Shown here piece by piece: positions 9,987 to 38,371 of a DNA stretch of 64,000 nt. The stretch lies in NCBI RefSeq assembly GCF_036507355.1, contig NZ_AP027877.1; one strand, written 5' to 3'. The translations under genes were made by a program, and so were the position numbers. Each line of letters opens with the position of its first letter. The stretch's first letter is position 1. The notes beneath the pieces were generated by a model. It ran no database searches and was not told where the DNA came from. It saw only the letters and a list, made by a program, of their open reading frames with translations. This DNA comes from Escherichia coli (GTDB taxonomy: Bacteria; Pseudomonadota; Gammaproteobacteria; Enterobacterales; Enterobacteriaceae).

Positions 9987-10313
9987 GTTCGTTAGTTATG
10001 TCTATCGACAAAAAAACGTAATCGGACACAAATACATAATTACACGTTACAAGAATACATATCCGATAACTAAATAAAATCCTAATTTTTCATTCACCAC
10101 CACCGTTATCCCGCCAATCGATGTAGAATACATTGGGTAGCACCCACAATTAAATAAACTCGTAATAGGATTAATTCACTTTATTTATGATTCGAGAGCT
10201 TTGAGAAACTCTCAAACATAATGTAGCAACATTAATATTATTACATGAGCAAAAAACCACTATTCTGTCGGAATAATTAGTATACTTTATCATAGCCCAT
10301 GAAGGATTCATGT

Positions 10314-10880: not shown

Positions 10881-10888
10881 TCCTTTTT

Positions 10889-10914
10889 AAGGCGGCTGAT
10901 TAGCCGCCTTTTGC
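10889..10914 (+). terminator. Possible intra-operon attenuator hairpin between fimbrial subunit and usher genes
   Basis: aaggcggct-gatt-agccgcctt stem followed by a short T run (tttt). Confidence 0.45.
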
Positions 10915-10929
10915 GAATATTGTTCAGGT

Positions 10930-13389: not shown

Positions 13390-13403
13390 TTAAGGAAAAG
13401 ACG

Positions 13404-14135
13404 ATGACATTTGTTAAAGGATTCCCTTTGATTCTTCTGGTTGCCAGTATGTGCAGCCACGGCGCAGTGCAGCCTGACCGCACGCGCATCATCTTTAATA
13501 GCAAAGATAAAGCAACCAGCCTGCGCGTGGAAAACCGCAGCGATAAACTCCCCTACCTCGCCTATTCATGGATAGAAAATGAAAAGGGAGAGAAAAGCGA
13601 TGAATTTCTCGTCGCCCTGCCGCCTATCCAGCGACTGGAGCCAAAAGCGACTTCGCAGGTTCGGATCATGAAACAAGCCGCCACCGCGAAATTACCCACC
13701 GATCGCGAATCTCTCTTTTACTATAACCTGCGTGAAATTCCGCCTGTCCCGGAAGGCAGCGAGGGCCATGCGATCCTGCAAGTCGCCGTCCAAAGTCGCA
13801 TTAAGCTATTCTGGCGGCCCGCCGCATTACGCAAAAAAATGGGCGATCATGTTGAGCAACAGCTACAGGTTAGCCAGCAGAATAACCAGCTTACCCTGAA
13901 AAACCCGACCGGATACTATCTGACTATTGCCTATCTTGGGCGGGATGAGAAAGGCGTGCTGCCTGGCTTTAAAAGCACGATGGTCGCACCGTTCAGTTCG
14001 GTCACCACCAGCACGGGCAGCTATAGCGGCAAGCAGTTTTATATTGGCTACATGGACGACTACGGCGCATTGCGTATGAACACGCTCTCCTGCCAGCGGC
14101 AATGCCGCCTGCAGCCGGTGGAGAATAAAAAATGA
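13404..14135 (+). CDS. ybgP: Periplasmic fimbrial chaperone (PapD-like)
   Basis: 243-aa [65 protein letters not shown]...; chaperone family pattern. Confidence 0.9.
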
Positions 14136-15193
14136 GATTCGCCAAAGGCGTGTTGCTCGCCATCTGTCTGATTTTTTTGCCGCTAAAAGCGGCGCTGGCG
14201 CTGAACTGCTATTTTGGTACCACAAACGGTGCTGTAGAAAAATCGGAAGCTATTATGCCCTTCGCCGTTCCGGCCAATTCCAAACCCGGCGATAAAATCT
14301 GGGAATCTGACGATATAAAAATTCCGGTCTACTGTGACAACAACACAAACGGTAATTTTGAAAGCGAGCACGTCTACGCCTGGGTAAACCCTTACCCCGG
14401 TATTCAGGATCCCTATTATCAATTGGGCGTAACCTATGAAGGCGTGGACTATGACGCAAGCCTTGGGAAAAGCCGCATCGACACGAATCAGTGCATCGAC
14501 AGTAAGAATATTGATATTTACACCCCGGAGCAGATCATTGCGATGGGCTGGCAAAATAAACTTTGCTCCGGCGATCCAACCGTTATGCACAAATCGCGGA
14601 CGTTTGTGGCGCGTATGCGGCTTTACGTTAAAGTTCGCGCCATGCCGCCCCATGATTATCAGAGCAAACTCAGCGATTACATCGTCGTACAGTTTGATGG
14701 CGCAGGCAGCGTGAACGAAGACCCTACCGCGAAGAGTCTGAAATATCACATTACCGGTCTGGAAAATATCCGCGTGCTGGATTGCAGCGTCAACTTTGCT
14801 ATCTCACCTGAAACCCAGGTCGTTGATTTTGGCCGATTTAACGTGCTGGATATTCGTCGCCATACGATGTCGCAGCAATTTAAAATAACTACAACCAAAT
14901 CACAAAACGACCAGTGTACCGACGGTTTTAAAGTCAGCTCTTCGTTTTATACCGATGAAACCCTTATCGACGAAGATAAATCACTGCTCATTGGCAATGG
15001 CCTGAAGCTTCGATTGTTGGATGAAAATGCCTCACCCTATACTTTCAACAAATACAGTGAATATGCCGATTTTACCAGCGACCTGTTAGTGTATGAAAAA
15101 ACCTACACGGCAGAATTGTCATCCACGCCGGGTACGCCCATCGACGTTGGTCCCTTTGATACAGTGGTACTTTTCAAAATTAACTACAACTGA
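14132..15193 (+). CDS. ybgO: Fimbrial adhesin-like protein (putative tip adhesin)
   Basis: 353-aa ORF with signal peptide ([23 protein letters not shown]); start overlaps the chaperone stop (ATGA); last gene of the chaperone-usher cluster. Confidence 0.85.
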
Positions 15194-15341
15194 TTTAGCC
15201 TATTGCCCTTTCCAGCCGGAGAGGGCTTCTTCGGTTAATTGCCAATTTTCCGGCTTTTATTGATTACCGTTATTTTTTCCATGCCCGGCATTCTTTATGC
15301 TGTATCGATACACCAAAGAGTAAATAATGAGGGAGCAAAGG

Positions 15342-16388
15342 ATGCCAGTTTTGCAGTGGGGAATGTTATGTGTGCTATCACTTCTCCTTTCTATTGGTTT
15401 ACTCGCGGTACATCTCCCGGCGGCATTATTACTTGGGCCGATGATCGCCGGGATCATCTTCAGTATGCGCGGGGTTACCCTGCAACTCCCCCGCTCCGCT
15501 TTTCTCGCCGCGCAGGCCATTCTTGGCTGCATGATTGCGCAAAACTTGACCGGTTCGATCCTGACCACGCTGGCGGTTAACTGGCCGATTGTGTTAGCTA
15601 TTTTACTGGTGACGTTGCTTTCCAGCGCTATCGTGGGATGGCTACTGGTGCGCTATAGCTCACTGCCCGGAAATACTGGTGCCTGGGGCTCCTCGCCTGG
15701 CGGCGCGGCGGCAATGGTCGCTATGGCGCAAGATTACGGCGCAGATATTCGCCTGGTGGCGTTTATGCAATATCTGCGAGTGCTGTTCGTCGCGGGGGCC
15801 GCGGTCCTGGTCACCCGCATGATGCTGGGTGATAACGCTGAAGCGGTTAACCAGCAAATCGTCTGGTTCCCGCCAGTGAGCATTAATCTCCTGCTTACGA
15901 TTTTGCTCGCGGTCGTTGCCGGTACGGCGGGATGCCTGCTGCGTCTTCCTTCCGGCACGATGCTCATCCCGATGCTGGCGGGCGCAGTGCTCCAGTCTGG
16001 TCAGCTCATCACCATCGAACTACCAGAATGGCTGCTGGCGATGGCGTATATGGCAATTGGCTGGCGGATTGGTCTTGGTTTCGATAAACAAATCTTACTG
16101 CGGGCACTACGCCCGCTACCGCAAATCCTGCTGTCGATTTTTGCTCTGCTGGCTATTTGTGCGGGTATGGCGTGGGGGCTGACCCGGTTTATGCACATTG
16201 ATTTTATGACTGCCTACCTCGCCACCAGCCCCGGCGGGCTTGATACCGTGGCGGTCATCGCCGCAGGGAGCAATGCCGATATGGCGCTCATTATGGCGAT
16301 GCAAACCCTACGCCTGTTCAGTATTTTGCTGACAGGGCCTGCCATTGCGCGGTTTATTTCAACCTATGCACCGAAGCGATCGGCCTAG
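15342..16388 (+). CDS. abrB: AbrB-family inner-membrane protein (putative regulator of aidB expression)
   Basis: Track ORF 15327..16388; start placed at [37 protein letters not shown]; polytopic membrane protein of 348 aa. Confidence 0.85.
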
Positions 16389-17176
16389 TGCTGGCAGCCA
16401 GGGCACCAGTAAAACGGGCGAGATGACAGCGTGGTTTTCTCAATGATGCCGCCACAACGTTCGCACGGTTCTCCATCACGATGAAAAACCTTAAAGCGGA
16501 ACAGCGCGCCGTGATGTTTTTTCTCATCCACCTGCCCCCGCGTAGCGTAGGAAAATCGAGGAATATCCAGTAACGCGTGTGCGAGTGCATCCAGTTGCGC
16601 CGCATTGAGATCTTTCGCTTTATGATTTCCAGTCACCCCAACCTGCCAGAGGATCTCCACCCGCAAATAATTGCCAAGCCCAGCCAGAAACGCCTGATCG
16701 AGCAGTAATCCAGCAAACTGACGGTTACGAAAGCGCGGCGACAATAACCGTTCTTTCACCACCTCCGGCGTCAGATTCGGATCCAGCACATCGGGACCAA
16801 CGCGTTGTAAAAACGGATGCGTGGTCAGTTGTTCCGGGGTCAACATCTCAATATCCGAGGCGCTATAAAGCAGAATGGTTTTGTCAGCCGTTTGCAGTTT
16901 TACCCGCAATACTCGCGTGGTCTGCGGCTCTTCGCCGGTATCAACCACGCGCCAGACGCCGTAAAGCTGATTATGGCTGTAGAGCGTTAAGTCGTTGGAA
17001 AAATGAGTTAACAGCGCCTTACCACGCGTTTCCACATGGGTAACGTGTTGACCGATAAGTGGTGATTGATAAGATTTTAACTGCGGGAAAGCAAACCAGA
17101 CATCAGTTAGTGGTTTGCCTTTGATCGCCGCCTCCAGGTTATCCGCTGCACGGCGGATCTCCGGGCCTTCAGGCAT
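16385..17176 (-). CDS. nei: Endonuclease VIII (DNA glycosylase/AP lyase)
   Basis: 263-aa [36 protein letters not shown]... with C-terminal zinc finger [26 protein letters not shown]. Confidence 0.96.
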
Positions 17177-17211
17177 GGTGATATCCTTTTTTCATTCTTT
17201 ATTAAACGGGG

Positions 17212-17946
17212 TTATGCTGCGACAACAATCCCCTTTTCGGCAAATGCAGAGCGTAGTCGGCGGGCGAACGCCAGTGCGTGCTCGCCGTCGCCATGCAGGC
17301 AGACCGTTTGCGCCGTGACCGTTGCCCATTCGCCGGTGATACTTTTGACTCTGCCGTGTTGCACCATCTCCAACGTTTGCGCCAGCGCCTGTTCTTCGTT
17401 TTCAATCAACGCGCCTGACTGGCTTCGCGGCACCAGCGAGCCGTCAGCCTGATAACCGCGATCGGCAAACACTTCCTCGCGCGTTGTCAGGCCATATTGC
17501 TTGCCTGCACGAATCAGCTCGCTTCCTGCCAGCCCAACGAGAACCAATGCTGGATCGCAAGCGTATACCGCTCTGGCGATGGCGTCTGCCAGTTGTGCTT
17601 CTTTCGCCGCCTGGTTGTACAACATGCCGTGCGGTTTGACATGACGCATTACGCCGCCTTGCGCACGGGTAATCGTTGCCAGCGCGCCAATTTGATACAG
17701 CGTCTGGGCGTAAACGGTTTCTGGCGGCAGCTGCATAGCGCTGCGACCAAAATTTTCCCTGTCGGGAAAACTCGGATGAGCGCCAATCGCGACACCATTT
17801 TTTATTGCTTCACGCACGCAAGCCTGCATGGTTTGCGCATCGCCTGCATGAAATCCACAGGCAATATTGGCAGAGGAAACCAGCGTTAATAGCTCTGCGT
17901 CGCTGGTGCAGCCTTCGCCCAGATCGGCGTTCAGGTCAATTTTCAT
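17212..17946 (-). CDS. pxpA: 5-oxoprolinase subunit A (LamB/YcsF family)
   Basis: 244-aa [47 protein letters not shown]... Confidence 0.93.
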
Positions 17947-18868
17947 TGTGCAGCCGCCACGCTAATTGTTCGAAATAACGTTGCTGATCTTGCCGCGCTT
18001 TCAGTGCCTCTTCCAGTGAACACTGGACAAAATGAATCGGCTGACCGAGCGGAATTTGCGCCAGATGGTACATATCAGCCTCAATGATACAGGCAATACG
18101 CGGGTAACCACCGGTGGTCTGTGCGTCGTTCATCAACACAATGGGCTGCCCGTTATGCGGCACCTGCACCACGCCCGGTAACAAACCGTGAGATAACAGT
18201 TCGCGATCGGTGGTGCGTTTTAAAATTTGCCCCTGTAAGCGATAGCCCATGCGGTTACTTTGCGAGCTAAGCTGCCAGGGCGAACGCCAGAATGCATCCT
18301 GCGAGGCGCGATCGAACTCATGATATTCCGGGCCCGGCAAGGCGCGAATGCGGTTGCCCCACAGCAGCTGTTTAACGCCCTGCGCTTCCATAAAATCACG
18401 CTTCGATTTGCCAATCGGGAGTCGGTCACCATCCTTCAGTAAACGGCCTTCCAGCCCGCCAATCCCCACTTTGAGATCGGTGCTGCATGACCCCATTACC
18501 GGCGGAACATCAATACCACCCGCGACCGCCAGATAACTGCGCATCCCGTGCTGCGGGCGTTTAAGCGTTAAACGCTGGCCTGCTTTCATCGGCAATCGCC
18601 AGCCGGTCCAGACGGCATTATCATCCAGCAGCGCTTCGCAACCGGCACCCGTCAGAGCAAACCCCCCATCAGTTTCGAACTCAACCGTTAACTGACCGAG
18701 CGTGATCTCCAGCGCGGGGGCATTGGCGTCATTACCCACCAGCAGGTTAGCAATGCGCAGCGCAGGCATATCCAGTGCGCCGCAGTGGCTGATACCCGAC
18801 TGGCGAAAACCGTGACGACCGCCATCTTGCACAGTGGTATACATGCCCGCACGAATAATCTTCAGCAT
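17936..18868 (-). CDS. pxpC: 5-oxoprolinase subunit C
   Basis: 310-aa [50 protein letters not shown]...; overlaps pxpA and pxpB as in a translationally coupled operon. Confidence 0.93.
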
Positions 18869-19518
18869 ACTCCCTCCTTTTGCGGTACAAAGCGCACGCT
18901 GTCTCCCGGACGTAATAAGATGGGTTCGTCACGCGCCGGATCAAACAGGCTGAGTGAGGTATGACCAATCAACTGCCAGCCACCCGGCGTTGCCAGCGGA
19001 TAAACACCAGTCTGCGGCCCGCCGATCCCGACAGAACCTGCCGGAACGAGCAAGCGCGGTTCAGCGCGCCGTGGCGTGTGTAGTTGTTCCGGCAAACTCC
19101 CGAGATACGGGAAGCCCGGTTGAAAACCTAAAAACCAGACCACGTATTCCACGGAGGAGTGCAATTCAACAACCTGTTTTTCGCTCAACCCGCAATGCGC
19201 CGCGACCACCGCCAAATCCGGTCCGCCTGCACCACCGTAAACCACCGGAATTTCAATAAAGCGAGACTCAGGTTCCAGGGCCTCGCTCTCCTCCCACCAG
19301 CGTTGCAAACGCTCTATGGCATCCAGCGCCAGCGACTCAGGATTACGCAAAATCACCGTGATATTGTTCATGCCGGGAATGGCTTCAACCACATTCGGCA
19401 TATCCACCAGACGCTGCGCCAGTCGCCAGATCCGTTTCTGGCTAGCCAGCGTCACCGGCGGTTCCAGTTCCAGCACTACCGCCGTTTCACCTATCAGATA
19501 ACAACGCGCTCGTTGCAC
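18862..19518 (-). CDS. pxpB: 5-oxoprolinase subunit B
   Basis: 218-aa [42 protein letters not shown]... Confidence 0.93.
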
Positions 19519-19540
19519 TTTCGATCCCTCTGATTATTCG

Positions 19541-20284
19541 TTATGCAGGATTAGGAATATCAATAAAGGTCACATCAAGATCGGTATTTTCATTCAGCCA
19601 CTCGCTCAATGCGCGAATACCACCGCGTTCAGTGGCATGGTGACCTGCAGCATAAAAATGCAATCCCTGCTCGCGGGCTGAATGAATGGTCTGTTCAGAA
19701 ACTTCGCCAGTAATAAAAGCATCCACGCCAAAACGCGCGGCGCTATCGATAAAACTTTGCCCGCCGCCCGTGCACCAGGCGACGCGCTGGACCACCTCAG
19801 GTCCGGTATCGCCACACCATAACGGCTTACGTCCCAGACGCGCTTCAATCCAGGAAGCCAGCTCCAGTCCCGGCACAGGCATGGTCAGTTCGCCCCACGG
19901 CACCAACGGCTCAATTTCGCCCATGACCGTAATCCCCAGTAACGCCGCCAGCTGTGCGTTATTGCCCAGCTCAGGATGTGCGTCAAGCGGCAAATGCCAG
20001 CCATACAGGTTGATATCATTCGCCAGCAACGTTTTTAAACGGTTACGCTTCATGCCGCGAATGACCGGAGATTCGCCTTTCCAGAAGTAGCCATGATGCA
20101 CAATGACCGCATCCGCGCCCAGACGCACTGCCTCATCGAGCAAAGCCTGGCTGGCAGTGACACCGGTAACAATTTTTTGCACCGTCTCTTTGCCTTCCAC
20201 CTGCAAACCATTCGGCGCGTAATCACTAATCGCCGCGCTGTTCAGTTTTTCGTTAATCAGTTGTTCCAGTTCGGTGTTTTTCAT
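19541..20284 (-). CDS. ybgI: Nif3-family dinuclear metal-binding protein (GTP cyclohydrolase 1 type 2 homolog)
   Basis: 247-aa ORF MKNTELEQLINEKLNSAAISDYAPNGLQVEGKETVQKIVTGVTASQALLDEAVRLGADAVIVHHGYFW... Confidence 0.93.
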   Translation of the reverse strand: MKNTELEQLINEKLNSAAISDYAPNGLQVEGKETVQKIVTGVTASQALLDEAVRLGADAVIVHHGYFWKGESPVIRGMKRNRLKTLLANDINLYGWHLPLDAHPELGNNAQLAALLGITVMGEIEPLVPWGELTMPVPGLELASWIEARLGRKPLWCGDTGPEVVQRVAWCTGGGQSFIDSAARFGVDAFITGEVSEQTIHSAREQGLHFYAAGHHATERGGIRALSEWLNENTDLDVTFIDIPNPA

Positions 20285-20371
20285 CTTCGCGCCTTCCGTA
20301 TTCTGATAGCTACACCGTTAACATAGCGTTACCTCGCCTGTTCGTCGATAGCCAATCTTTTGACATATTAA

Positions 20372-22036
<1,665 letters not shown>

Positions 22037-22050
22037 CAGGTCAAACCGAT

Positions 22051-22165
22051 GCCTGATGCGACGCTTAACGCGTCTTATCAGGTCTACGTATTTCCTGCAA
22101 TTTATTGAATTTGCACAAATTTGTAGGCTGGATAAGGCGTTTACGCCGCATCCGGCATCTGGGCT
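22051..22165. repeat. REP/BIME units between convergent dtpD and phr
   Basis: gcctgatgcgacgcttaacgcgtcttatcaggtctac and gtaggctggataaggcgtttacgccgcatccggca palindromic units. Confidence 0.6.
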
Positions 22166-22184: not shown

Positions 22185-23603
22185 TTATTTCCCCTTCCGC
22201 GCCGCCTCATACGCTGCCAACGTTTGTACTCTCGCCTCTTTGTGATCGACTATCGGTTGCGGATAATCCAGCGTCACACCTGCTTTCTGCGCCCACTTCC
22301 ACGGCTCATGCACCGCTTTCCCCGGTACATTGCGCAGTTCCGGTAGCCACTGGCGGATAAACTCGCCTTCGCGGTCAAATTTCTCGCCCTGGGTTGTCGG
22401 GTTGAAAATACGAAAATACGGCGCTGCATCAGTACCCGTAGAAGCCGCCCACTGCCAGCCACCGTTATTGGCTGCCAAATCACCATCAATCAGCTGCGAC
22501 ATGAAATATCGCTCGCCTTCGCGCCAGTCGATCAACAAATCTTTCACCAGAAAACTGGCTGTAATCATCCGTAGCCTGTTATGCATCCAGCCAGTGCTAT
22601 TAAGCTGACGCATGGCAGCATCGACAATCGGGTATCCCGTTATGCCTTCCTGCCAGGCCTTTAAATGGGCGGGATTGCTTTGCCACTGTACACGATCCGT
22701 CCAGGCAATAAACGGACAATGTTTACACAACGAGGGGTAATATGTCATCAGATGACGGTAAAACTCGCGCCAGATCAGCTCATTAAGCCAGACACTACCG
22801 GCCCCACCGTCCAGCGCCTGCGGCTGTTCCGCCAACAGGCGATGCAAACACTGGCGAGGTGATAACCCGCCCGTTGCCAGGCTGGCGGACAAACGACTGG
22901 TGCCTTCCACTGCCGGAAAATCTCGTTGTTGCTCATATTCTCCGGCACCGTTCTGGCAAAACTGGCGTAATTGCGCAATCGCCGCTTTTTCTTCCACCGG
23001 GAAATGCGCAGTATCGAAAGACTGACGAGGATAATTCAGCGTAATGGATGGCGCGGGCTTTATCGATCCGCTACTACGAACTTTTGGTGCAGCGACGCAC
23101 TCCGGCATCCCTTCCCGCAGCCGTTTCAGCCAGGCATTCTTAAAAGGCGTAAAGACTTTGTACATCTCATGATTGCCGGTCATCACCGCGCCAGGCGGCA
23201 GGATCACGCTGTCATCAAATCCTTCACACACCACGTTACGCAGCGTTCTCTCAACCTGCACATCCCGCGCCCGCTCATTCACCTCATACTGATAGTTATA
23301 AAAAAGATGAGTAACGCTGTTTTCCGCGCACACCTGTTTAACTATTTCGACGCTGGCGGCAAAGTCATCCACTTCACGGAACAATAAAGGAATGCCTTTT
23401 TCCGCCAGCGCGATTTGTAGCCCGTTCAGTTGAGCATTGATAAGTTCAGCCTGACGCGGCGACATATTATGCGCCGCCCACTGGCGTGGTGTAGCGATAT
23501 ACAACGCCAGCACGCGTGCAGACGAATTGCGGCAGGCGGCAGCCAGCGCGAGATTATCGTGCAGACGTAAATCCTGGCGAAACCAGACCAGATGAGTAGT
23601 CAT
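22185..23603 (-). CDS. phr: Deoxyribodipyrimidine photolyase
   Basis: 472-aa ORF MTTHLVWFRQDLRLHDNLALAAACRNSSARVLALYIATPRQW...; full length. Confidence 0.96.
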   Translation of the reverse strand: MTTHLVWFRQDLRLHDNLALAAACRNSSARVLALYIATPRQWAAHNMSPRQAELINAQLNGLQIALAEKGIPLLFREVDDFAASVEIVKQVCAENSVTHLFYNYQYEVNERARDVQVERTLRNVVCEGFDDSVILPPGAVMTGNHEMYKVFTPFKNAWLKRLREGMPECVAAPKVRSSGSIKPAPSITLNYPRQSFDTAHFPVEEKAAIAQLRQFCQNGAGEYEQQRDFPAVEGTSRLSASLATGGLSPRQCLHRLLAEQPQALDGGAGSVWLNELIWREFYRHLMTYYPSLCKHCPFIAWTDRVQWQSNPAHLKAWQEGITGYPIVDAAMRQLNSTGWMHNRLRMITASFLVKDLLIDWREGERYFMSQLIDGDLAANNGGWQWAASTGTDAAPYFRIFNPTTQGEKFDREGEFIRQWLPELRNVPGKAVHEPWKWAQKAGVTLDYPQPIVDHKEARVQTLAAYEAARKGK

Positions 23604-24109
23604 AAAACTCCTGAATGGCGCAAGTTAATCACACGCGGCCAAAGTTCGAAATAACGCTGCCCTGAAAGCCAGGCGTCAGGATAAAGCGCCATATAGTGTT
23701 TGATACGCATCAGCGGCGCAAGAAGTGGTTGCTCGCCACGGCGATAACTGTCGATAAGCGCAGCCAGCTGCTGGCGTTCTGTGGAATCAATATGCGGGCG
23801 AAAATAACCCTGAACGTGCATCAAAACGTTGGTGTGATCGCGCGGGTTGGCGGGATGAGAAAGCAAAACAATTACGCGTTGGCGGTACTGGCTGTAAAAA
23901 TCATCCAGATTTTGCCACTGATGAATATCAGCCACAAACGGGCCAAGTTTGCGGTATTCCGGCTGAGAATGAGCCAGAAAGACGAGTTTATAGCGGCTGT
24001 GATAATCGAGAAGCGCCCCGCGCGTTAAGCCATGTTCTTTCAGTCGATGTAACTCATGAAGGGCGAAGATACGGATTAGGGTGCTGTCATCAAATCGTTG
24101 CTGATTCAT
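23600..24109 (-). CDS. ybgA: DUF1722-family protein, co-transcribed with phr
   Basis: 169-aa ORF MNQQRFDDSTLIRIFALHELHRLKEHGLTRGALLDYHSRYKLVFLAHSQPEYRKLG...; stop overlaps the phr start (ATGA). Confidence 0.9.
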   Translation of the reverse strand: MNQQRFDDSTLIRIFALHELHRLKEHGLTRGALLDYHSRYKLVFLAHSQPEYRKLGPFVADIHQWQNLDDFYSQYRQRVIVLLSHPANPRDHTNVLMHVQGYFRPHIDSTERQQLAALIDSYRRGEQPLLAPLMRIKHYMALYPDAWLSGQRYFELWPRVINLRHSGVL

Positions 24110-24339
24110 TACTGCTCCTGAGATATTAACAGGAGTAAGTGTAGACGTTGGGAAATGATTTTTGTGAAGTTAATCCGCTAGCAGGGCAAGATTACGAAAG
24201 CGCGCTCCCCGCAAGCAACTCATCAAGGTAGTTAATCATGGCTTAACACGATATTACGCCAGAAGTCACCATTTCCAAAACACAGCGCCGCTATAAAGTC
24301 GGCTATGTCAGAGCCCGCCACATAAACAGCAAAACCTAC

Positions 24340-24567
24340 ATGACCACGTACTACTCACGACACCCCTGCCTGAACCTTAAGGGCGACTGGCTGAAAGAGG
24401 CCGGATTTGATACCGGGCGGGGTGTCACGGTGAAGATTTCGGAGGGGTGCCTGACCATTATCGCTGACAGTGACGAGGTGCAGGAGCTGCGGGAGGAACT
24501 TTATCAGGTTAAACAGGTGGTTAAGGGGATACGGAGCGGGATGTTTAGTGTGCTGGACGAGAGTTAA
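24340..24567 (+). CDS. SymE-like small protein (SymE/AbrB-fold type I toxin family); possibly N-terminally truncated
   Basis: 75-aa ORF MTTYYSRHPCLNLKGDWLKEAGFDTGRGVTVKISEGCLTIIADSDEVQELREELYQ... resembles the SymE core (..[33 protein letters not shown]..). The in-frame upstream sequence still looks SymE-like but has no start codon before the stop at 24244. Confidence 0.6.
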   Translation: MTTYYSRHPCLNLKGDWLKEAGFDTGRGVTVKISEGCLTIIADSDEVQELREELYQVKQVVKGIRSGMFSVLDES

Positions 24568-24572
24568 ATAAT

Positions 24573-24612
24573 AAAAAAGCCGGGAAGATGTTATTTTCTT
24601 CCCGGCTTTTTT
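24573..24612. terminator. Bidirectional rho-independent terminator shared by the SymE-like gene (+) and the Rhs immunity gene (-)
   Basis: gccgggaag-(10 nt loop)-cttcccggc stem flanked by an A run on one side and a T run on the other. Confidence 0.75.
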
Positions 24613-24904
24613 AAAGTTTATTTATAGCTTGGTTAATTTCAAATAATAATGAGACAATATCTTTCGCAGAACCATTATAAATGGGGGTATCCCAATCAAA
24701 GTCCTTTATTAAACAAATATAAAAATTCCCATTTAAATTAAAAGATGGTCGCCACCCAACATCCAAAAGATACCCACCAGGATATTCAACTTGGAGCATA
24801 TCTTCCTTAAGTTCATCTCGCTGTTCATTAAGAGGGATGCTTTGTTTCAGGGAGAAGTCATTAAAAATTACATTCCCTTTTTTTCCTAAGAAATCAATGT
24901 TCAT
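24611..24904 (-). CDS. Putative Rhs immunity protein (cognate to the toxin tip immediately upstream)
   Basis: 97-aa AT-rich ORF MNIDFLGKKGNVIFNDFSLKQSIPLNEQRDELKEDMLQVEYPGGYLLDVGW...; its ATG overlaps the toxin stop (ATGA at 24901-24904). Position and composition are typical of rhsI genes; no family assignment was possible. Confidence 0.6.
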   Translation of the reverse strand: MNIDFLGKKGNVIFNDFSLKQSIPLNEQRDELKEDMLQVEYPGGYLLDVGWRPSFNLNGNFYICLIKDFDWDTPIYNGSAKDIVSLLFEINQAINKL

Positions 24905-26151
24905 GGTGTTGTTAGCCTTCGGAATTCATCAAGTGATATGGGATGTCCATGTATTGTCCCACCGCTAAGTTCAACTCGAACCCATTGAGATTCTTTACCC
25001 TCACTGGCCCCAATAACTTTCCCCATATCTTTTACTTTCCATGGTTTACCGTTGGTAACAGGTGTGCCTGTATTAAAAACATCGTATTCCAGCGTTTTAA
25101 TATCAATATCGGGAGAATATTTTGCCGGGCCTGATTTTGTTGATTTAATTATATCCTTCCATGATTTGTTTTTTGGAGGAAAATGTTTGTATCCATGATT
25201 TGTCCATTCAGGTTGCCCACACTTTAAACCTAACGGGTCGATCCACCCCAACGGATTCGGCGCGTATTGGTATAAATTTAATCCACCAAGCAGCCCTATC
25301 GGATCCGTTACCATGAACCGCCCGACATCCGGATCATAGTACCTGTGCAGATTGTAGTGCAGCCCCGTTTCCCTGTCGAGGTACTGTCCCTGGTAGCGCA
25401 GGTTCTGCTCCACCCTGCCGTGGTCCTTCTCCTGTATCGTGTTACCCCAGACCTGATACCCCGTCTCCCACACGATTCTCCCGTCGCTGTCCGTCATCTC
25501 TTCCGGCGCACCGTTCACATCCGTGTGAAAATACAGTATCCGGTTCGGGCCCTCTTTGCCTGCCTTATCCACCCGCGCCAGCGGTTCATAACTCCCCGGG
25601 TCCCTGTAGATGTACAGGCTGCCTGTTCCCTCCGGCCTGCTCTCCTGCGCCAGCCGCATTCCGTCCCATAAAAATTTTGTCCGGTTGTACGGTTTACCGT
25701 CAGGGCTGATGTGCTGTTTTTCCGTCCGCCTCCCCAGTGCATCGTACACATACCGGTATGCCCCCCGCGCTGTCGTCACTTCCACCATCCGGTGTTCCGC
25801 ATCATAACGGTAACTCTGCGTTCCGCTCCGGCCCTCCTTTTCCACCGCACGGCCAAATTCGTCATAACGGTAGTGCACACCACGGTAAGACATCAGCCGG
25901 TTGAACGGCACCACGCTGTTTTCTGCCGTGGCCCTTTCCCCCGCGCGCCTCCCCAGCAGGTTTCCCGCCGCGTCGTACTGCCAGCTCGCCAGATACCCCT
26001 CATCCTCCGAACGGCACGCCGTGATGCGCCCCGTGGGGTCGTAGAAGTAATCCGTTTCCCCCCGCCGGCTGTGCCGCGTCTTCAGCAGTTCATCCTCGCC
26101 ACTGTAGCTGTACTGCCGGTCCGTGAACGTCTCCGGTACCACCCCGCGCAT
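24901..26151 (-). CDS. Rhs protein, C-terminal part: end of YD-repeat core, PxxxxDPxGL motif and a 107-aa toxin tip. Same frame as the upstream fragment, separated from it by an in-frame TAG
   Basis: ORF contains YD repeats (YRYDEFGR, YRYDAEHR, YVYDALGRR) and the hallmark YYDPDVGRFMVTDPIGLLGGLNLYQYAPNPLGWIDPLGL, followed by a low-GC tip KCGQPEWTNHGYKHF...TIHGHPISLDEFRRLTTP. Frame arithmetic: the TAG at 26221-26223 is in frame with this ORF. Confidence 0.85.
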   Translation of the reverse strand: MRGVVPETFTDRQYSYSGEDELLKTRHSRRGETDYFYDPTGRITACRSEDEGYLASWQYDAAGNLLGRRAGERATAENSVVPFNRLMSYRGVHYRYDEFGRAVEKEGRSGTQSYRYDAEHRMVEVTTARGAYRYVYDALGRRTEKQHISPDGKPYNRTKFLWDGMRLAQESRPEGTGSLYIYRDPGSYEPLARVDKAGKEGPNRILYFHTDVNGAPEEMTDSDGRIVWETGYQVWGNTIQEKDHGRVEQNLRYQGQYLDRETGLHYNLHRYYDPDVGRFMVTDPIGLLGGLNLYQYAPNPLGWIDPLGLKCGQPEWTNHGYKHFPPKNKSWKDIIKSTKSGPAKYSPDIDIKTLEYDVFNTGTPVTNGKPWKVKDMGKVIGASEGKESQWVRVELSGGTIHGHPISLDEFRRLTTP

Positions 26152-26220
26152 CCCGCTGTATGTCTCCCTGCGCTTCAGCCGCCCGCCGGGGTCGTAAAGC
26201 TGCCGCGTGCTCAGTCGCCC

Positions 26221-28380
26221 CTAGCTTCTGAGCACCTCACGGTGCAGGTGGTCGCGCGTGAACTCGCTGATGACCTCCCGGTCCAGATTTATCTGCTGGA
26301 GATGGCCGCTGCCGTAGTACAGATGGCGCTGCGTTCTGCCGTCCGGAAAGGTGGTGGCAGTCCGGTTGCCCAGTTCATCGTACTGGTGGGTCAGGATGCC
26401 CTGCGCCGTCTCCTCGCTCAGCATCCGCCCCAGTCTGTCGTAGCTGAAGCAGATAACTTCCGGCGCGTCAGTTTCGTGCCGCTGGCGGCGGATTTCACCG
26501 CCCCGGTCCCCGGTGAACACCACTTCCGTGACCGCGTTCAGCGCGTTGTAGCGGTACGACTGGCGGCAGCCGTCCGGATTTATCTGCTCCGCCAGACGGT
26601 CCAGCACGTCATGGCGGAACCGGTAGCGTTCTCCGTTCTCGTTCGTGAGCGTGACCAGACGCCCGTAAGCGTCGTACCCGAACGCCGTCCTGCGCCCCAT
26701 CGCGTCCGTCCGGCTGCGCACCCGGCCCTGCCCGTCCCGCTGCCAGCGCGTTATCCTCCCCATCGGGCTGGTGTACTTCACCAGACTGCCCGCCGCGTCT
26801 GACTGGTAATTCACCGTGCGGCCGTCCGCCAGTATCACCTCCGTCAGATGACCGCTGTCGTCATACCCGTAGCGCGTGCTGTGGCTCTCCGCATCCGTCA
26901 TTCTGATAAGCCGCGTGCGTTCGTCGTAGAACCACGCCGTCTGCGAGCCGGAGCAGTCCGTGTGCCGCATGAGCTGCCCGTCTTCATTCCACTGGAGGTG
27001 TTTATTCCCCCCGCGCGCATCCGTTATCTGCACCACCTGGCCGTGGTGGTCATACTGATACCGGGTGTTCTGCTGCAGCGGGTCGGTCACGGCAAGAAGG
27101 TTGCCGCGTTCATCGTACACACAGCGCCAGGTGTTTCCCGCCGCGTCCACCTCCGTTTCCGGCTGGTGCCACACCGGGTGCCACTGTGTCTGCGCCACCC
27201 GCCCCAGCGGGTCGTGCGTCTCCGTGATATGCCCCTGCCGGTCATACACATAGCGCCATTTGCCGCCCTGAGGGTCGGTCATCCCCAGCAACAGTCGTTC
27301 TTCGTCGCTCCAGCGGAATGTCGTCACCTGTCCGGCTTCGTCCTGGTACGCCGTCACCTGATTCTGCGCATCCCACTGGTGATAACGTGTGCGCCCCAGT
27401 CCGTCCGTCACGCACAGCCTGCGCTGCGCCAGGTCCCACGCCAGCCGGTACTGTTCACCGCTGTCCGTGTGGTGCCCCGTCACCCGCCATGCCGCGTCAT
27501 CCGGACCGTCATACCAGCCCCACTGGTAATAATACCCTTCGCCGCCCGGCTGGCGGTGCAGCGTCATGCAGTGGTTTTCGTCGTAAGCAAACTCACGCAG
27601 CAGGTGCCCCGTGCTGTCGTACACGCCGTTCAGGTGGCCGGCCTCGTCATAGCTGTAACGACGCAGCAGTAAAGGTGCAGTCTCAGGGAAATGCTGATAA
27701 ATCTGTGTCACCCGCCGGGGATGCGCCGCCAGTTCGTAATACAGACGGATGCACGGACGCTGCTGTTCGCCGCTGATTTCCACAATGCGGCCCCGGTCGT
27801 CGTAGTACAGATTCAGACAGTTGCTGTTACGGTCGCCCAGCATTTTCAGCCGCTGGCGCTGCGGGTGGTGCGGGTCGCCTTCAAACAACCAGTGGATACC
27901 ATCATCGCTGCTGATAAGCCAGTGCCCCTGCTCACCACGCCTTACCGCCAGCCCTTCACCGGGGCTGTAAAACCCGCCCCCCGGCAGTACGGCTTCCATA
28001 TCCAGGCGTCGCCCCATACCCGACACAAAGGTCATGCAGTTTTCGTCTGCGCCACCCGGCAATACAAATGCCACCTGACACTGGTACACCTGCTCGTTAT
28101 CACGGAGAAACTGGCTCTGTATTTCCAGCCCTTGTTCACCGTCATTAATCCCTACCCGTGTTACCTGAACTGGCGTGTAGTGAAGATCCTTTACCTGTTT
28201 CTCCAGTTTTTTCATTTGCTGTTCAATCTGGGAGGCTAATTCGTCTCCTTCCTGCATCTGGCCCCGACTGATAATGAGTGCAGCGTCGGGATCGCTGAGG
28301 CGCAGCATATTAATAGTGCTGTCCTGAATAATATTCCCGGGAAAAGTTACAACAGTTTCATTGAGATAATACTCCGTCAT
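26221..28380 (-). CDS. Rhs protein, N-terminal part: DUF1795-like N-terminal domain plus YD-repeat core, ended by an in-frame amber codon (probable pseudogene or disrupted gene)
   Basis: 719-aa ORF. Core shows classic Rhs repeats (YQYDHHGQVV, YGYDDSGHLTEV, FGYDAYGRLV) and ends ...FTRDHLHREVLRS*, where intact Rhs proteins continue ...TRDRLHRETLRSFG.... Confidence 0.85.
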   Translation of the reverse strand: MTEYYLNETVVTFPGNIIQDSTINMLRLSDPDAALIISRGQMQEGDELASQIEQQMKKLEKQVKDLHYTPVQVTRVGINDGEQGLEIQSQFLRDNEQVYQCQVAFVLPGGADENCMTFVSGMGRRLDMEAVLPGGGFYSPGEGLAVRRGEQGHWLISSDDGIHWLFEGDPHHPQRQRLKMLGDRNSNCLNLYYDDRGRIVEISGEQQRPCIRLYYELAAHPRRVTQIYQHFPETAPLLLRRYSYDEAGHLNGVYDSTGHLLREFAYDENHCMTLHRQPGGEGYYYQWGWYDGPDDAAWRVTGHHTDSGEQYRLAWDLAQRRLCVTDGLGRTRYHQWDAQNQVTAYQDEAGQVTTFRWSDEERLLLGMTDPQGGKWRYVYDRQGHITETHDPLGRVAQTQWHPVWHQPETEVDAAGNTWRCVYDERGNLLAVTDPLQQNTRYQYDHHGQVVQITDARGGNKHLQWNEDGQLMRHTDCSGSQTAWFYDERTRLIRMTDAESHSTRYGYDDSGHLTEVILADGRTVNYQSDAAGSLVKYTSPMGRITRWQRDGQGRVRSRTDAMGRRTAFGYDAYGRLVTLTNENGERYRFRHDVLDRLAEQINPDGCRQSYRYNALNAVTEVVFTGDRGGEIRRQRHETDAPEVICFSYDRLGRMLSEETAQGILTHQYDELGNRTATTFPDGRTQRHLYYGSGHLQQINLDREVISEFTRDHLHREVLRS

Positions 28381-29163
28381 AATGATATGAGTCCTTTTTA
28401 ATTAATAAATTATTTAATGATGGTTTTTGTTTATTTTTAGTCATGAAAATGATACCCATCACTGCTTTACAGCACACTTTATCTTTCCAGCCATAATCAC
28501 TAATAATATTAAGCAATTACCAATATTTACACCGACCAGAGCGGATACATAGTTATGTATTTAACAATCCCAATATATTCACTATGCAAATAAAACCACT
28601 AGTAACAGACACGCTACCGCCTCCATATAAAAATGGACACCTTATAAAATTGTATCTTGCATAGAAAAAGCTGAAATATCGGATGCGTTTTAATTATCCA
28701 CTATAAGTCTATAAGCTTTTTATTAACAACAAAACATCTTATTGGATTAGATATGTTAACAATTAATTATTCTTAATATATCAATAAAGTATATATTACT
28801 CTCTTTACTATCTGCTTTTCTTGCGGTAGCGATACTAATAGCAAAATTCGGAATTTATTTAGATGCTGGAATTAGAAAAAGGGATGGCGGCCTTCTCACC
28901 TTACCCTGAAGTCTCAGGAAAGTGTGTAAGGAAGTATGCAACCTAACTGGAGATTTCTGATGATCTAGCCGCTTAGAGCGACAATGAAGGTGACCGCATC
29001 CTGGGTAGCCCTATGAAAGGATACTATTGAAACTTGATGCTAAAACAGTGATGAAATGAATAACACGATGGAAACGTCTTCCATGTTAATTATCATGGAA
29101 GACGTTGATGTAAAATACCTAAACCAGCCCCCTGATACGAGGCTGGCTTAAGCGCGCAGGCAA

Positions 29164-29370
29164 TCAATAAAAATCACCGGTTGCCTTTTCGGCCTGATCC
29201 ATCCAAACCGGTTTATCGCTGGTTTTCGACCAGACGCGATGCAGGTAGCTGTAAAAGCGGGCGCGGTCTTTCCAGAAAAGCATGAAAGGCAGCGCCAGAA
29301 CGCCCGCTGCAACCGCATAAGTACGGCGTAAAAAGATAAGCCATGCAGGATATTCTCTGTAGAGTTCCAT
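29164..29370 (-). CDS. ybfA: DUF2517-family small protein
   Basis: 68-aa [71 protein letters not shown]. Confidence 0.85.
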
Positions 29371-36774: not shown

Positions 36775-37448
36775 CAAACGTTCTGATTGTTGAAGATGAA
36801 CAAGCTATTCGTCGCTTTCTGCGCACGGCGCTGGAGGGCGACGGTATGCGCGTCTTTGAGGCCGAAACGCTGCAACGCGGCTTGCTGGAAGCGGCAACCC
36901 GTAAGCCAGATTTGATTATTCTCGATCTCGGCCTGCCCGATGGTGATGGGATTGAGTTTATCCGCGACCTGCGCCAGTGGAGCGCGGTGCCGGTGATAGT
37001 GCTTTCCGCACGCAGCGAAGAGAGCGACAAAATCGCCGCGCTGGATGCCGGAGCGGATGATTATCTGAGTAAGCCGTTTGGCATTGGCGAATTGCAGGCC
37101 CGTCTGCGCGTCGCATTACGCCGCCATTCAGCCACTGCCGCGCCCGATCCGCTGGTGAAATTTTCCGATGTGACCGTCGATTTAGCCGCCCGCGTGATCC
37201 ATCGGGGCGAGGAAGAGGTGCATCTCACGCCGATTGAGTTCCGCCTGCTGGCGGTGCTGCTCAACAATACCGGAAAAGTGCTCACCCAGCGCCAGCTCCT
37301 TAACCAGGTGTGGGGGCCAAACGCGGTCGAACACAGTCATTATTTGCGTATTTATATGGGGCATCTGCGACAAAAACTGGAGCAGGATCCCGCCCGCCCC
37401 CGCCATTTCATTACCGAAACCGGTATTGGGTATCGGTTTATGCTTTAG
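36771..37448 (+). CDS. kdpE: Response regulator KdpE (OmpR family)
   Basis: 225-aa ORF (GTG start overlapping the kdpD stop) [39 protein letters not shown]...ITETGIGYRFML. Confidence 0.95.
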   Translation: MTNVLIVEDEQAIRRFLRTALEGDGMRVFEAETLQRGLLEAATRKPDLIILDLGLPDGDGIEFIRDLRQWSAVPVIVLSARSEESDKIAALDAGADDYLSKPFGIGELQARLRVALRRHSATAAPDPLVKFSDVTVDLAARVIHRGEEEVHLTPIEFRLLAVLLNNTGKVLTQRQLLNQVWGPNAVEHSHYLRIYMGHLRQKLEQDPARPRHFITETGIGYRFML

Positions 37449-37740
37449 GGGTTGAAATGCCGGATGCGGCGTAAACGCCTTATCCAGCCTACTCATCGTC
37501 CCGTAGGCATGATAAGACGCGTCAGCGTCGCATCAGGCATGGCTCTGTGAATAACGTCGGCAAAAACTGGAAAAAGACCCCGCCCTCGCCATTTTATTAC
37601 CGAAACCGGTATTGGGTATCGGTTTATGCTTTAGGGGCTGACTTGCCGGATGCGGCGTGAACGCCTTATCCAGCCTACTCATCGTCCCGTAGGCATGATA
37701 AGACGCGTCAGCGTCGCATCAGGCATTGGCACTCATGGCT
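37449..37740. repeat. REP/BIME cluster containing an imperfect tandem duplication of the kdpE 3' end
   Basis: Segment 37371-37542 recurs at 37561-37728 at roughly 90% identity, including REP units gccggatgcggcgtaaacgccttatccagcctac and gtaggcatgataagacgcgtcagcgtcgcatcaggca. Confidence 0.7.
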
Positions 37741-37747
37741 AAATATT

Positions 37748-38242
37748 TTAATGTGTATTTATCGCTTTCAACTCTTGCTGGCATTTTTCTGACTGGCAGC
37801 GTCGCAACTCAATAATCCCGACATGCATCATCGAGCCAATAAAGCCGCTTTCGCTGACATAATCCTCATTAACTATCGGTCGAGTGCCGGGCTTGCCCTG
37901 GCAAACCAGCATAAAAAATGAGGTGTAGCACTGCCAGCCGGGATTTAAACCGGCTTTTTCTTGTGCTGACATATCGTGAAGATAAATAAGTTCTTTTTCG
38001 TTCCCGCCTGACAACTGCCAGCGGCGGGTATTATCAGGTAAGTTATCGCTACAACAATTTGTCTTACACCGGGAAGGCGCAATATTTACCGCAATGCTAC
38101 CCTTTAACCCTCTGGTTTTATCTTTAGGGGTCAGTAACCAGTCGCCAGCTAATGATGATTGTTCAGGTTGGGCACATGCAGTCAGCAGTAGTGTGGCGGC
38201 AATGAATGTTACTCTTACGACCAGACTCCTTTTGGTCTTCAT
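37748..38242 (-). CDS. ybfP: Putative lipoprotein
   Basis: 164-aa ORF MKTKRSLVVRVTFIAATLLLTACAQPEQSS... with lipobox LLTAC; position next to pgm as in K-12. Confidence 0.75.
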   Translation of the reverse strand: MKTKRSLVVRVTFIAATLLLTACAQPEQSSLAGDWLLTPKDKTRGLKGSIAVNIAPSRCKTNCCSDNLPDNTRRWQLSGGNEKELIYLHDMSAQEKAGLNPGWQCYTSFFMLVCQGKPGTRPIVNEDYVSESGFIGSMMHVGIIELRRCQSEKCQQELKAINTH

Positions 38243-38292
38243 TTTGAATTCCCTTGAGCTATTCAGTTTGTTGGCAAAGTGCGCGTTGTTTT

Positions 38293-38333
<41 letters not shown>

Positions 38334-38371
38334 ATGCAAATTCAATATATTGCACCATCAGGCAGTCATAC

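What the first reader, a model, noticed from the sequence alone, without database searches (positions are those of the whole stretch)
28021..28380. The Rhs protein begins with a DUF1795 (EagR-type chaperone)-like domain instead of a PAAR domain
The first ~120 residues (MTEYYLNETVVTFPGNIIQDSTINMLRLSDPDAALIISRGQMQEGDELASQIEQQMKKLEKQ...QVYQCQVAFVLPGGADENCMTFVS) follow the pattern I associate with DUF1795 chaperones of type VI effectors (N-E-x...P...QD.S.N....... ISR....EG.EL....EQQ...L, ending ...L.PGG..L.F). The PAAR-like GKPAARQGD N-terminus of K-12 RhsA-D is absent. The frame runs without a stop straight into the Rhs region that corresponds to roughly residue 130 of classical RhsC (..LPGGGFYSPGEGLAVRRG..). 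Two readings are possible: a genuine chaperone-domain-Rhs fusion, or a deletion that fused a separate upstream eagR gene to a 5'-truncated rhs. No vgrG or PAAR gene is present nearby.
Basis: partly seen in the sequence, partly recalled or inferred. Interest (0 to 1): 0.75.

Follow-up and report, generated by a model that had tools for sequence, protein, structure and literature searches.

The report
Deletion-fused eagR–rhs toxin gene remnant
The odd "chaperone-domain Rhs protein" is the wreck of an ordinary E. coli type VI secretion toxin locus, where a 1.5-kb deletion welded the chaperone gene onto a beheaded toxin gene that also carries a premature stop, so it is a pseudogene and not a new protein architecture.

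Summary
The 719-codon ORF (window 28380..26224, minus strand) starts with a partial DcrB/DUF1795 domain (Pfam E=1.4e-13), has no PAAR domain and runs straight into Rhs repeats.

In 208 of 212 complete E. coli genomes that carry this eagR, a separate 150-aa eagR lies 18 nt upstream of a 1544-1554-aa Rhs. That Rhs has the order prePAAR (AARQGDALLH), TMD, PAAR, DUF6531, YD shell. Strain 100416 has an intact copy at the same ybfA-ybgA site with the identical toxin tip and immunity protein.

Against these references the window carries four lesions:
- A 1512-nt in-frame deletion at a CCGGGT microhomology. It joins eagR codon 109/110 to rhs codon 457/458 and removes the chaperone's conserved last strand and helix, plus the prePAAR, TMD, PAAR and most of DUF6531.
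- A 105-nt slippage deletion.
- A CAG→TAG stop at codon 720, upstream of the Rhs core and toxin.
- A nonsense codon in the neighbouring symE-like gene.

Only the immunity gene is intact. The junction was found nowhere else, but two other, independent eagR::rhs deletion fusions occur in E. coli. The finding is a pseudogene relic of a known system and of low interest.

The parts
28053..28380 (-). eagR-derived part of the fused ORF: codons 1-109 plus the first base of codon 110. It is a truncated DcrB/DUF1795 chaperone lacking residues 111-150.
   Evidence: Pfam DcrB E=1.4e-13, model 10-99/127. 96.7-97.4% nucleotide identity to the eagR genes and upstream DNA of RM8082 and TB06052. The protein alignment shows that the conserved 111-142 segment is missing.
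28053..28059 (-). Deletion junction: the microhomology CCGGGT(G), shared by eagR codons 108-110 and rhs codons 455-457. 1512 nt are missing relative to intact loci.
   Evidence: Three-way DNA comparison. The deletion measures exactly 1512 nt against L001, L008 and L010. The MAFFT gap block is 1512 nt.
26224..28052 (-). Rhs-derived part of the fused ORF. It corresponds to Rhs residue 458 onward of the intact protein: the tail of DUF6531 followed by the YD-repeat shell.
   Evidence: RHS_repeat hits. 96.3-98.1% nucleotide identity to rhs of L010, L001 and L008, starting at rhs nucleotide ~1363.
26487..26496 (-). Scar of a second, 105-nt in-frame deletion (35 codons). It is the single remaining copy of the 10-nt direct repeat GAAATCCGCC.
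   Evidence: L001, L008, L010 and L002 all keep both repeat copies and the intervening sequence.
26221..26223 (-). Premature stop codon TAG (codon 720), which cuts the Rhs shell off from its core and toxin.
   Evidence: Translation. All five references have CAG (Gln) at this codon.
24904..26220 (-). Continuation of the rhs reading frame after the stop. It holds the remaining YD repeats, the RHS core domain with the DPxGL motifs, and a ~110-aa C-terminal toxin tip of unknown family. The rhs stop codon is at 24901-24903.
   Evidence: Same frame. Pfam RHS PF03527 E=1.6e-14. TIGR03696. The last 110 aa are identical to the intact Rhs of strain 100416.
24611..24904 (-). Cognate immunity gene (97 aa), intact. 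Its start overlaps the rhs stop (ATGA).
   Evidence: ORF. 100% identical to the protein encoded downstream of the intact rhs in strain 100416, WP_032280515.1. The immunity role is inferred from position only.
24238..24567 (+). symE-like gene of the island, inactivated by GAA to TAA at codon 3 (24244-24246).
   Evidence: Alignment to the intact gene of strain 100416. NCBIfam SymE E=3e-12 for the residual 75-aa ORF.
28381..29163 (-). Upstream non-coding region between ybfA (29164..29370, minus strand) and the fused ORF. It is retained as in intact loci, so whatever promoter eagR uses is presumably still present.
   Evidence: Contiguous 96.7% alignment from ybfA into eagR. The promoter scan is uninformative: 3 sites found against 3.9 expected.

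Best explanation
The ORF is a pseudogene relic of a standard eagR-rhs-rhsI island inserted between ybfA and ybgA of an E. coli chromosome. That island encodes a class I prePAAR Rhs effector of the type VI secretion system and its Eag chaperone. A microhomology-mediated deletion of 1512 nt joined eagR codon 109/110 in frame to rhs codon 457/458, by slippage or illegitimate recombination at CCGGGT. It removed the last beta-strand and C-terminal helix of the chaperone, the 18-nt spacer, and the effector's prePAAR motif, transmembrane region, PAAR domain and most of DUF6531. The chaperone fragment therefore has nothing left to bind, and the Rhs body has lost the parts that mount it on VgrG. A 105-nt slippage deletion, a nonsense codon at position 720 and a nonsense codon in the adjacent symE-like gene show continuing decay. 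The only part kept perfectly is the immunity gene, which may still protect against relatives that carry the intact toxin. The deletions, the stop codons and the ancestral layout are shown directly. Loss of function, the deletion mechanism and a protective role for the immunity gene are inferred.
For: The separate eagR + prePAAR-Rhs layout occurs in 208 of 212 complete E. coli genomes holding this eagR. An intact orthologue sits at the same ybfA-ybgA site, with identical toxin tip and immunity protein, in strain 100416. The intact Rhs N-terminus has AARQGDALLH at residues 7-16, a hydrophobic stretch at about residues 18-77, PAAR (Pfam E=2.2e-5) and DUF6531 (E=6e-19). The deletion is exactly 1512 nt at CCGGGT(G). 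The 105-nt deletion lies between 10-nt direct repeats, and CAG became TAG. The symE-like gene has a nonsense codon. EagR residues 111-142 are nearly invariant across Escherichia, Salmonella and other homologues and are all lost. In the AF2 model of the intact EagR they form strand 112-120 and helix 126-137, and the 10-residue blocks over 101-140 have the highest confidence in the model, pLDDT 82-91. Published experiments: RhsA lacking its N-terminus no longer binds EagR1, and prePAAR plus PAAR are necessary and sufficient for VgrG binding (Ahmad et al. 2020, PMC7773334). The junction is absent from 5,426 complete E. coli genomes, from the 15-billion-protein collection, from GTDB species representatives and from JGI metagenome contigs. 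Independent eagR::rhs deletion fusions exist in TB06052 and in the P0017 contigs. At the same locus the rhs gene is annotated as a pseudogene in RM8082 and A31.
Against: Both deletions are in frame, which leaves a long translatable ORF behind an apparently intact upstream region, so a protein product is not excluded. Isolated window-private substitutions in the rhs part are 7 synonymous to 4 non-synonymous by my hand count, after dropping a clustered patch at codons 162-168 and columns next to the 105-nt gap. That gives no signal of long neutral drift, so the inactivation is probably recent. No reads are available, so an assembly or sequencing error cannot be formally excluded for the single-base stop codons.
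Confidence: 0.93

Rival explanations
1. A genuine, functional chaperone-domain-Rhs fusion protein: a new Rhs architecture in which a cis DUF1795 domain replaces PAAR as the N-terminal delivery or stabilising module.
For: The fusion is in frame, the DcrB hit is significant, and the upstream region is retained. The Rhs-derived 'CMTFVS' loosely resembles the lost EagR strand 'MAFTYA'.
Against: The DcrB domain is cut at model position 99 of 127 and lacks the conserved strand and helix. Its known ligand, the prePAAR-TMD segment, is deleted. The stop at codon 720 detaches the toxin. No junction-spanning protein was found among 5.8 billion clusters, with maximum query coverage 57%. No junction match was found in any DNA collection searched. 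The other two fusions of this kind are out of frame.
Confidence: 0.02
2. A silent reservoir: the remnant is non-functional as it stands, but the rhs fragment with its toxin tip and immunity gene is kept as an orphan cassette. It could be reactivated or exchanged by homologous recombination with a full-length rhs elsewhere in the genome, while the immunity gene protects now.
For: The toxin tip and immunity gene are 100% identical to those of an intact locus. E. coli genomes hold several rhs paralogues that share the core sequence: the first query, whose rhs part begins just past the junction, found a median of 4 places per genome. A paralogous vgrG-eagR-rhs locus exists near ansP. Recombinational activation of orphan rhs modules in Salmonella is, as I recall it, established knowledge (Koskiniemi et al. 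2014); I did not check that paper here.
Against: There is no evidence that this genome has a full-length rhs or a T6SS, because only 64 kb are visible. Perfect conservation of the toxin tip and immunity gene is equally expected if the decay is recent. This reading adds to the pseudogene explanation and does not replace it.
Confidence: 0.25
3. An assembly or sequencing artefact: the deletions or stop codons are not present in the real chromosome.
For: Rhs genes are repetitive and are often misassembled from short reads. The genome of origin is not among the complete E. coli genomes searched.
Against: The junctions lie at 6-10-nt microhomologies, not at long repeats. They are clean and in frame. 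Comparable deletions are seen in independent assemblies. Four separate lesions in one 4-kb island fit decay better than error.
Confidence: 0.04

Closest known systems
Class I prePAAR Rhs effectors with cognate EagR (DUF1795) chaperones: Salmonella Typhimurium Rhs1-SciW, Pseudomonas protegens RhsA-EagR1, Serratia marcescens Rhs-EagR (Ahmad et al. 2020, PMC7773334; Alcoforado Diniz & Coulthurst 2015, PMC4524185)
   Same: The ancestral locus has the same parts. A 150-aa DUF1795 gene lies directly upstream of an Rhs that starts with AARxxDxxxH, a hydrophobic TMD stretch and PAAR, followed by the YD shell, RHS core, toxin tip and immunity gene. SciW is the closest solved structure to this EagR, E about 1e-3.
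   Different: In the window the chaperone lacks its C-terminal 40 residues and is fused to an Rhs that lacks prePAAR, TMD and PAAR and is interrupted by a stop. No vgrG lies at this site, even in intact versions.
The intact eagR-rhs-rhsI-symE island at ybfA-ybgA of E. coli strain 100416 (NZ_CM128593.1; WP_032280514.1, WP_251301338.1, WP_032280515.1)
   Same: Same chromosomal site. The toxin tip (last 110 aa) and the immunity protein are identical. The distal rhs-to-ybgA stretch is 98.4% identical in nucleotides; the proximal rhs core is 96.3% and the eagR/upstream stretch 95.3%.
   Different: The window has the 1512-nt and 105-nt deletions, the rhs nonsense codon and the symE nonsense codon.
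Other eagR::rhs deletion pseudogenes in E. coli: strain TB06052 at ybfA-ybgA, and the P0017 contigs at the ansP vgrG-eagR-rhs locus
   Same: Each is a microhomology deletion joining the eagR interior to the rhs interior. P0017 uses the same eagR breakpoint (GCCGGGTG). TB06052 uses the same rhs breakpoint (GGGTA).
   Different: Both are out of frame and give short truncated products. PGAP labels the TB06052 pieces as partial pseudogenes. Only the window's deletion happens to be in frame.
Classical E. coli K-12 RhsC at the same ybfA-ybgA interval (from my own knowledge, not fetched here)
   Same: An rhs element occupies the same variable interval. The YD-repeat core is homologous: the NCBIfam RHS_core profile aligns from just before the junction.
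   Different: K-12 RhsA-D begin with a PAAR-like MSGKPAARQGD N-terminus and have no eagR. The window's element descends from the prePAAR/EagR lineage, not from the K-12 type.

Membership tests
Eag chaperone / DUF1795 (Pfam PF08786 DcrB) | Significant match to the PF08786 profile | tested here: met
   E=1.4e-13 at residues 18-108. 97% identity to stand-alone E. coli EagR over residues 1-109.
Eag chaperone / DUF1795 (Pfam PF08786 DcrB) | Complete domain: a ~150-aa protein with the terminal beta-strand and C-terminal helix | tested here: not met
   The match stops at model position 99 of 127. Residues 111-150 are deleted, including the nearly invariant M113, A115, Y118, A119, R120, R131, W132 and the segment I135-R142. 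In the AF2 model this region forms strand 112-120 and helix 126-137.
Eag chaperone / DUF1795 (Pfam PF08786 DcrB) | Encoded as a separate gene next to a prePAAR-TMD effector whose N-terminus it binds | tested here: not met
   In the window it is fused, and the effector N-terminus is absent. The feature is met in the ancestral layout.
Eag chaperone / DUF1795 (Pfam PF08786 DcrB) | Binds and stabilises effector transmembrane helices | not testable with these tools
   Needs co-purification. There is no candidate ligand in the window.
Class I prePAAR Rhs effector | prePAAR motif AARxxDxxxH at the N-terminus | tested here: not met
   Absent from the window ORF. Present as AARQGDALLH at residues 7-16 of the intact orthologue.
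Class I prePAAR Rhs effector | One N-terminal TMD region followed by a PAAR domain | tested here: not met
   No PAAR hit in the 719-aa ORF. In the intact orthologue there are hydrophobic windows over residues 18-77 and a PAAR hit at 291-321. All of this lies inside the 1512-nt deletion.
Class I prePAAR Rhs effector | YD/Rhs repeat shell | tested here: met
   Ten RHS_repeat hits at E<=1e-3.
Class I prePAAR Rhs effector | RHS core with cleavage motif and C-terminal toxin in one polypeptide with the shell | tested here: not met
   The core (PF03527 E=1.6e-14, TIGR03696) and the toxin tip are present, but they lie downstream of the TAG at codon 720.
Class I prePAAR Rhs effector | Cognate immunity gene immediately downstream | tested here: met
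   An intact 97-aa ORF overlaps the rhs stop and is identical to that of the intact locus. The immunity function itself was not tested.
Hypothetical natural DUF1795-Rhs fusion architecture | Recurrence of the same fused architecture in other genomes | tested here: not met
   No junction-spanning protein. The exact protein is not on record. The junction is absent from complete E. coli genomes, GTDB representatives and JGI metagenomes.

The most novel reading that the evidence does not exclude
The short GC-rich patch CCGGGT(G/A), present in both eagR (codons 108-110) and rhs, may act as a recurrent deletion hot spot. Such a hot spot would repeatedly convert armed eagR-rhs loci into 'immunity-only' loci: three independent junctions use one or both of these sites. 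That would be a semi-predictable route by which E. coli lineages disarm a T6SS effector while keeping protection. In this strain the in-frame product might additionally persist as a stable, non-secreted Rhs shell.
Probability: 0.1. Interest if true: 0.3.

Novelty: already known. Interest (0 to 1): 0.1.

Why it matters
It matters little for biology and is useful for annotation. A gene caller will report a 719-aa 'DcrB/RHS repeat protein', which could be taken for a new domain architecture of T6SS effectors. Comparison with intact loci shows it should be annotated as two fused pseudogene fragments (eagR' and 'rhs) followed by an intact orphan immunity gene. The locus is also a clean small example of effector loss with immunity retention. 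It shows that the ybfA-ybgA interval of E. coli can be empty, can hold an intact eagR-rhs island, or can hold the island in various stages of decay.

Tried and rejected
1. I looked for the fused protein elsewhere. An exact look-up and a junction-spanning 217-aa query against 5.8 billion clusters found only hits to one half or the other.

2. I looked for the junction DNA in GTDB species representatives and JGI metagenome contigs. There were no matches.

3. I counted window-private substitutions to test for relaxed selection. There are 24 private changes in the rhs part. Many sit in one clustered patch at codons 162-168, probably gene conversion, or next to the 105-nt gap. The isolated ones are 7 synonymous to 4 non-synonymous by my hand count. 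That is too few to conclude anything, and it argues only that the decay is recent.

4. The promoter and terminator scan upstream of the ORF was no better than shuffled sequence, so it says nothing about expression.

5. I searched for a family for the toxin tip and the immunity protein in Pfam and NCBIfam. Nothing was found beyond the RHS core.

6. I considered whether TB06052 descends from a window-like fusion by a second deletion. The rhs-side breakpoint is the same, but the bases after it differ (ACTGCT against GGCGCA), and TB06052 keeps the 105 nt that the window lacks. I treat the two events as independent, without proof.

7. I did not run a structure search or model the fused N-terminus, because the comparative evidence was already decisive.

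Full report
**What is in the sequence**

On the minus strand an ORF runs from the ATG at window 28380 to codon 719 (26224) and ends at a TAG (26223-26221). The same frame then continues without further stops to 24904. That stretch encodes more YD repeats, the RHS core and a ~110-aa C-terminal tip. A 97-aa ORF follows, whose ATG overlaps the rhs stop (24904..24611).

Pfam on the 719 aa gives DcrB/DUF1795 (PF08786) at residues 18-108 with E=1.4e-13, covering only model positions 10-99 of 127. It also gives ten RHS_repeat hits and no PAAR. Two points need correcting. Only residues 1-109 come from the chaperone.

**Genomic setting**

The window is an E. coli chromosomal segment, collinear with strain RM8082 from odhB (sucB) through gltA, the ybgD-type fimbrial operon, nei, pxpABC, dtpD, phrB, ybgA | ybfA, kdpFABCDE, pgm ... 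to miaB. It contains no T6SS, vgrG or PAAR genes.

The element lies between ybgA (23600..24109) and ybfA (29164..29370). This interval is variable:
- It is empty (~100 nt) in the two complete genomes most similar to the window at kdpE-pgm, GPT24-02 and A30.
- It holds an eagR-rhs-imm-symE island in others.

**The ancestral layout**

A 2-kb probe spanning eagR and the first 1.5 kb of rhs finds 212 complete E. coli genomes. In 208 of them the probe is covered at 80% or more, meaning the two genes are separate and complete in this part.

EagR is a 150-aa 'DcrB-related protein' seen on more than 1000 contigs. Eighteen nucleotides downstream starts an Rhs of 1544-1554 aa. The Rhs N-terminus has these parts:
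- MEEAFWAARQGDALLH, an exact AARxxDxxxH prePAAR motif at residues 7-16.
- A hydrophobic stretch over residues ~18-77.
- A PAAR motif (Pfam E=2.2e-5, residues 291-321).
- DUF6531 (E=6e-19, residues 395-473).

This is the class I prePAAR Rhs effector plus Eag chaperone arrangement described by Ahmad et al. 2020 (PMC7773334). SciW, the Salmonella EagR, is the closest solved structure. A paralogous copy near ansP has the full vgrG-eagR-rhs-imm-symE module.

Strain 100416 carries, at ybfA-ybgA, intact eagR and rhs genes. Its toxin tip (last 110 aa) and immunity protein are identical to those of the window.

**The lesions**

Compared with L001, L008 and L010, the window lacks exactly 1512 nt. The sequences at the join are:
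- eagR reads ...GTATTGCCGGGTGAGCGG...
- rhs reads ...GCACACCGGGTAGCGCAGACGAAAAC...
- the window reads ...GTATTGCCGGGTGGCGCAGACGAAAAC....

The join lies in a 6-7-nt microhomology (window 28059-28053) and happens to be in frame. EagR residues 1-109, a hybrid Gly codon and Rhs residue 458 onward are joined.

Three further lesions follow:
- A 105-nt in-frame deletion removes 35 codons between two copies of GAAATCCGCC. One copy is left at 26496-26487.
- Codon 720 is TAG where all five references have CAG.
- The symE-like gene on the other strand (24238-24567) has TAA at codon 3 where strain 100416 has GAA.

The immunity gene is untouched.

**Consequences for function (inferred)**

The deleted EagR segment 111-150 is the most conserved part of the family in the Escherichia, Salmonella and other homologues I aligned. 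In an AlphaFold model of the intact protein (mean pLDDT 74, pTM 0.72) it forms strand 112-120 and helix 126-137. The 10-residue blocks over 101-140 have the highest confidence in that model.

The chaperone's ligand is the prePAAR-TMD segment. RhsA lacking its N-terminus no longer binds EagR1, and prePAAR plus PAAR are necessary and sufficient for VgrG binding (PMC7773334). All of that is deleted here. Even without the stop codon, the product could not be chaperoned in the normal way or mounted on a spike. With the stop codon, the shell fragment has no toxin.

**Is the fusion found elsewhere?**

No. The following searches found nothing:
- The exact protein is not in the 15-billion-sequence collection.
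- A 217-aa query centred on the junction finds only hits covering one half, with a maximum of 57% of the query.
- Only one of 5,426 complete E. coli genomes covers the junction region, and it (TB06052) has a different deletion.
- The 29-nt junction string is absent from GTDB species representatives and from JGI metagenome contigs.

Similar accidents do recur, however. TB06052 joins eagR codon 73 to the same rhs site through GGTA. That deletion is 1621 nt and out of frame, and PGAP annotates the pieces as partial pseudogenes. P0017 is found on 18 contigs at the ansP locus. It joins the same eagR site, GCCGGGTG, to rhs at about codon 899, out of frame, next to a vgrG with an internal deletion. 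At ybfA-ybgA the rhs of RM8082 has an internal stop and that of A31 a frameshift. Decay of this island is therefore common.

**Verdict**

The 'genuine fusion' reading is not supported. The feature is a strain-private pseudogene of a well-described system.

The age of the decay could not be resolved: the private substitutions are too few, which suggests it is recent. Whether the ORF is still transcribed is also unknown, because the promoter scan was uninformative. The sharing of breakpoints among three independent deletions is noted. It probably reflects the scarcity of GC-rich microhomology in eagR, but I did not test that statistically.

Noticed in passing
window 24238-24567 (+): The symE-like type I toxin gene of the island has a nonsense codon at codon 3: TAA at 24244-24246, where strain 100416 has GAA. 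A 75-aa ORF is left, starting at an internal Met (24340).
   Followed up: yes
window 24611-24904 (-) and 24904-25230 (-): The Rhs C-terminal tip (~110 aa, KCGQPEWTNHGYKHFPP...) and the 97-aa putative immunity protein have no Pfam or NCBIfam family. Both are 100% identical to those of E. coli strain 100416. This is an uncharacterised toxin/immunity pair.
   Followed up: partly
window 28053-28059; L002 ~9536-9545; L012 6320-6328: Three independent eagR::rhs deletions share breakpoints. The window and the P0017 contigs use the same eagR site (G)CCGGGTG. The window and TB06052 use the same rhs site CCGGGTA. This may be a microhomology hot spot; I did not test it statistically.
   Followed up: partly
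window 37444-38371: speFL-speF-potE, which lie between kdpE and pgm in RM8082 (~4.2 kb), are absent. About 0.93 kb takes their place, holding a 164-aa ORF (37748..38242, minus strand) with no NCBIfam hit plus repeat sequence that matches at a median of 32 places per genome. The same layout occurs in 246 complete E. coli genomes.
   Followed up: partly
window 10313-22082: The stretch from the ybgD-type fimbrial operon through nei and pxpABC to dtpD is only 89% identical to RM8082, while the flanks are 98-99% identical. This looks like a divergent, probably recombined, segment.
   Followed up: no
L015 8622-8723 and L016 8816-8917: In E. coli GPT24-02 and A30 the ybgA-ybfA interval is ~100 nt with no rhs element at all. 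The eagR-rhs island is therefore an accessory insertion at a variable site.
   Followed up: yes
L010 4990-6360 (intact Rhs N-terminus of strain 100416): The intact Rhs is unusually long before its shell. About 215 residues, including a second 'PAAR' string at residue 113 and an acidic low-complexity linker, separate the TMD stretch (ending ~77) from the PAAR motif hit (291-321). A further hydrophobic segment follows PAAR, at roughly residues 345-385 by eye, though it fell below my KD>=1.6 cutoff. This is not the compact class I layout described for RhsA and Rhs1.
   Followed up: no
L012 4703-5950: In the P0017 contigs the vgrG upstream of the fused eagR is also internally deleted: ~743 nt are missing relative to E371, leaving a 415-aa product.
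   Followed up: partly
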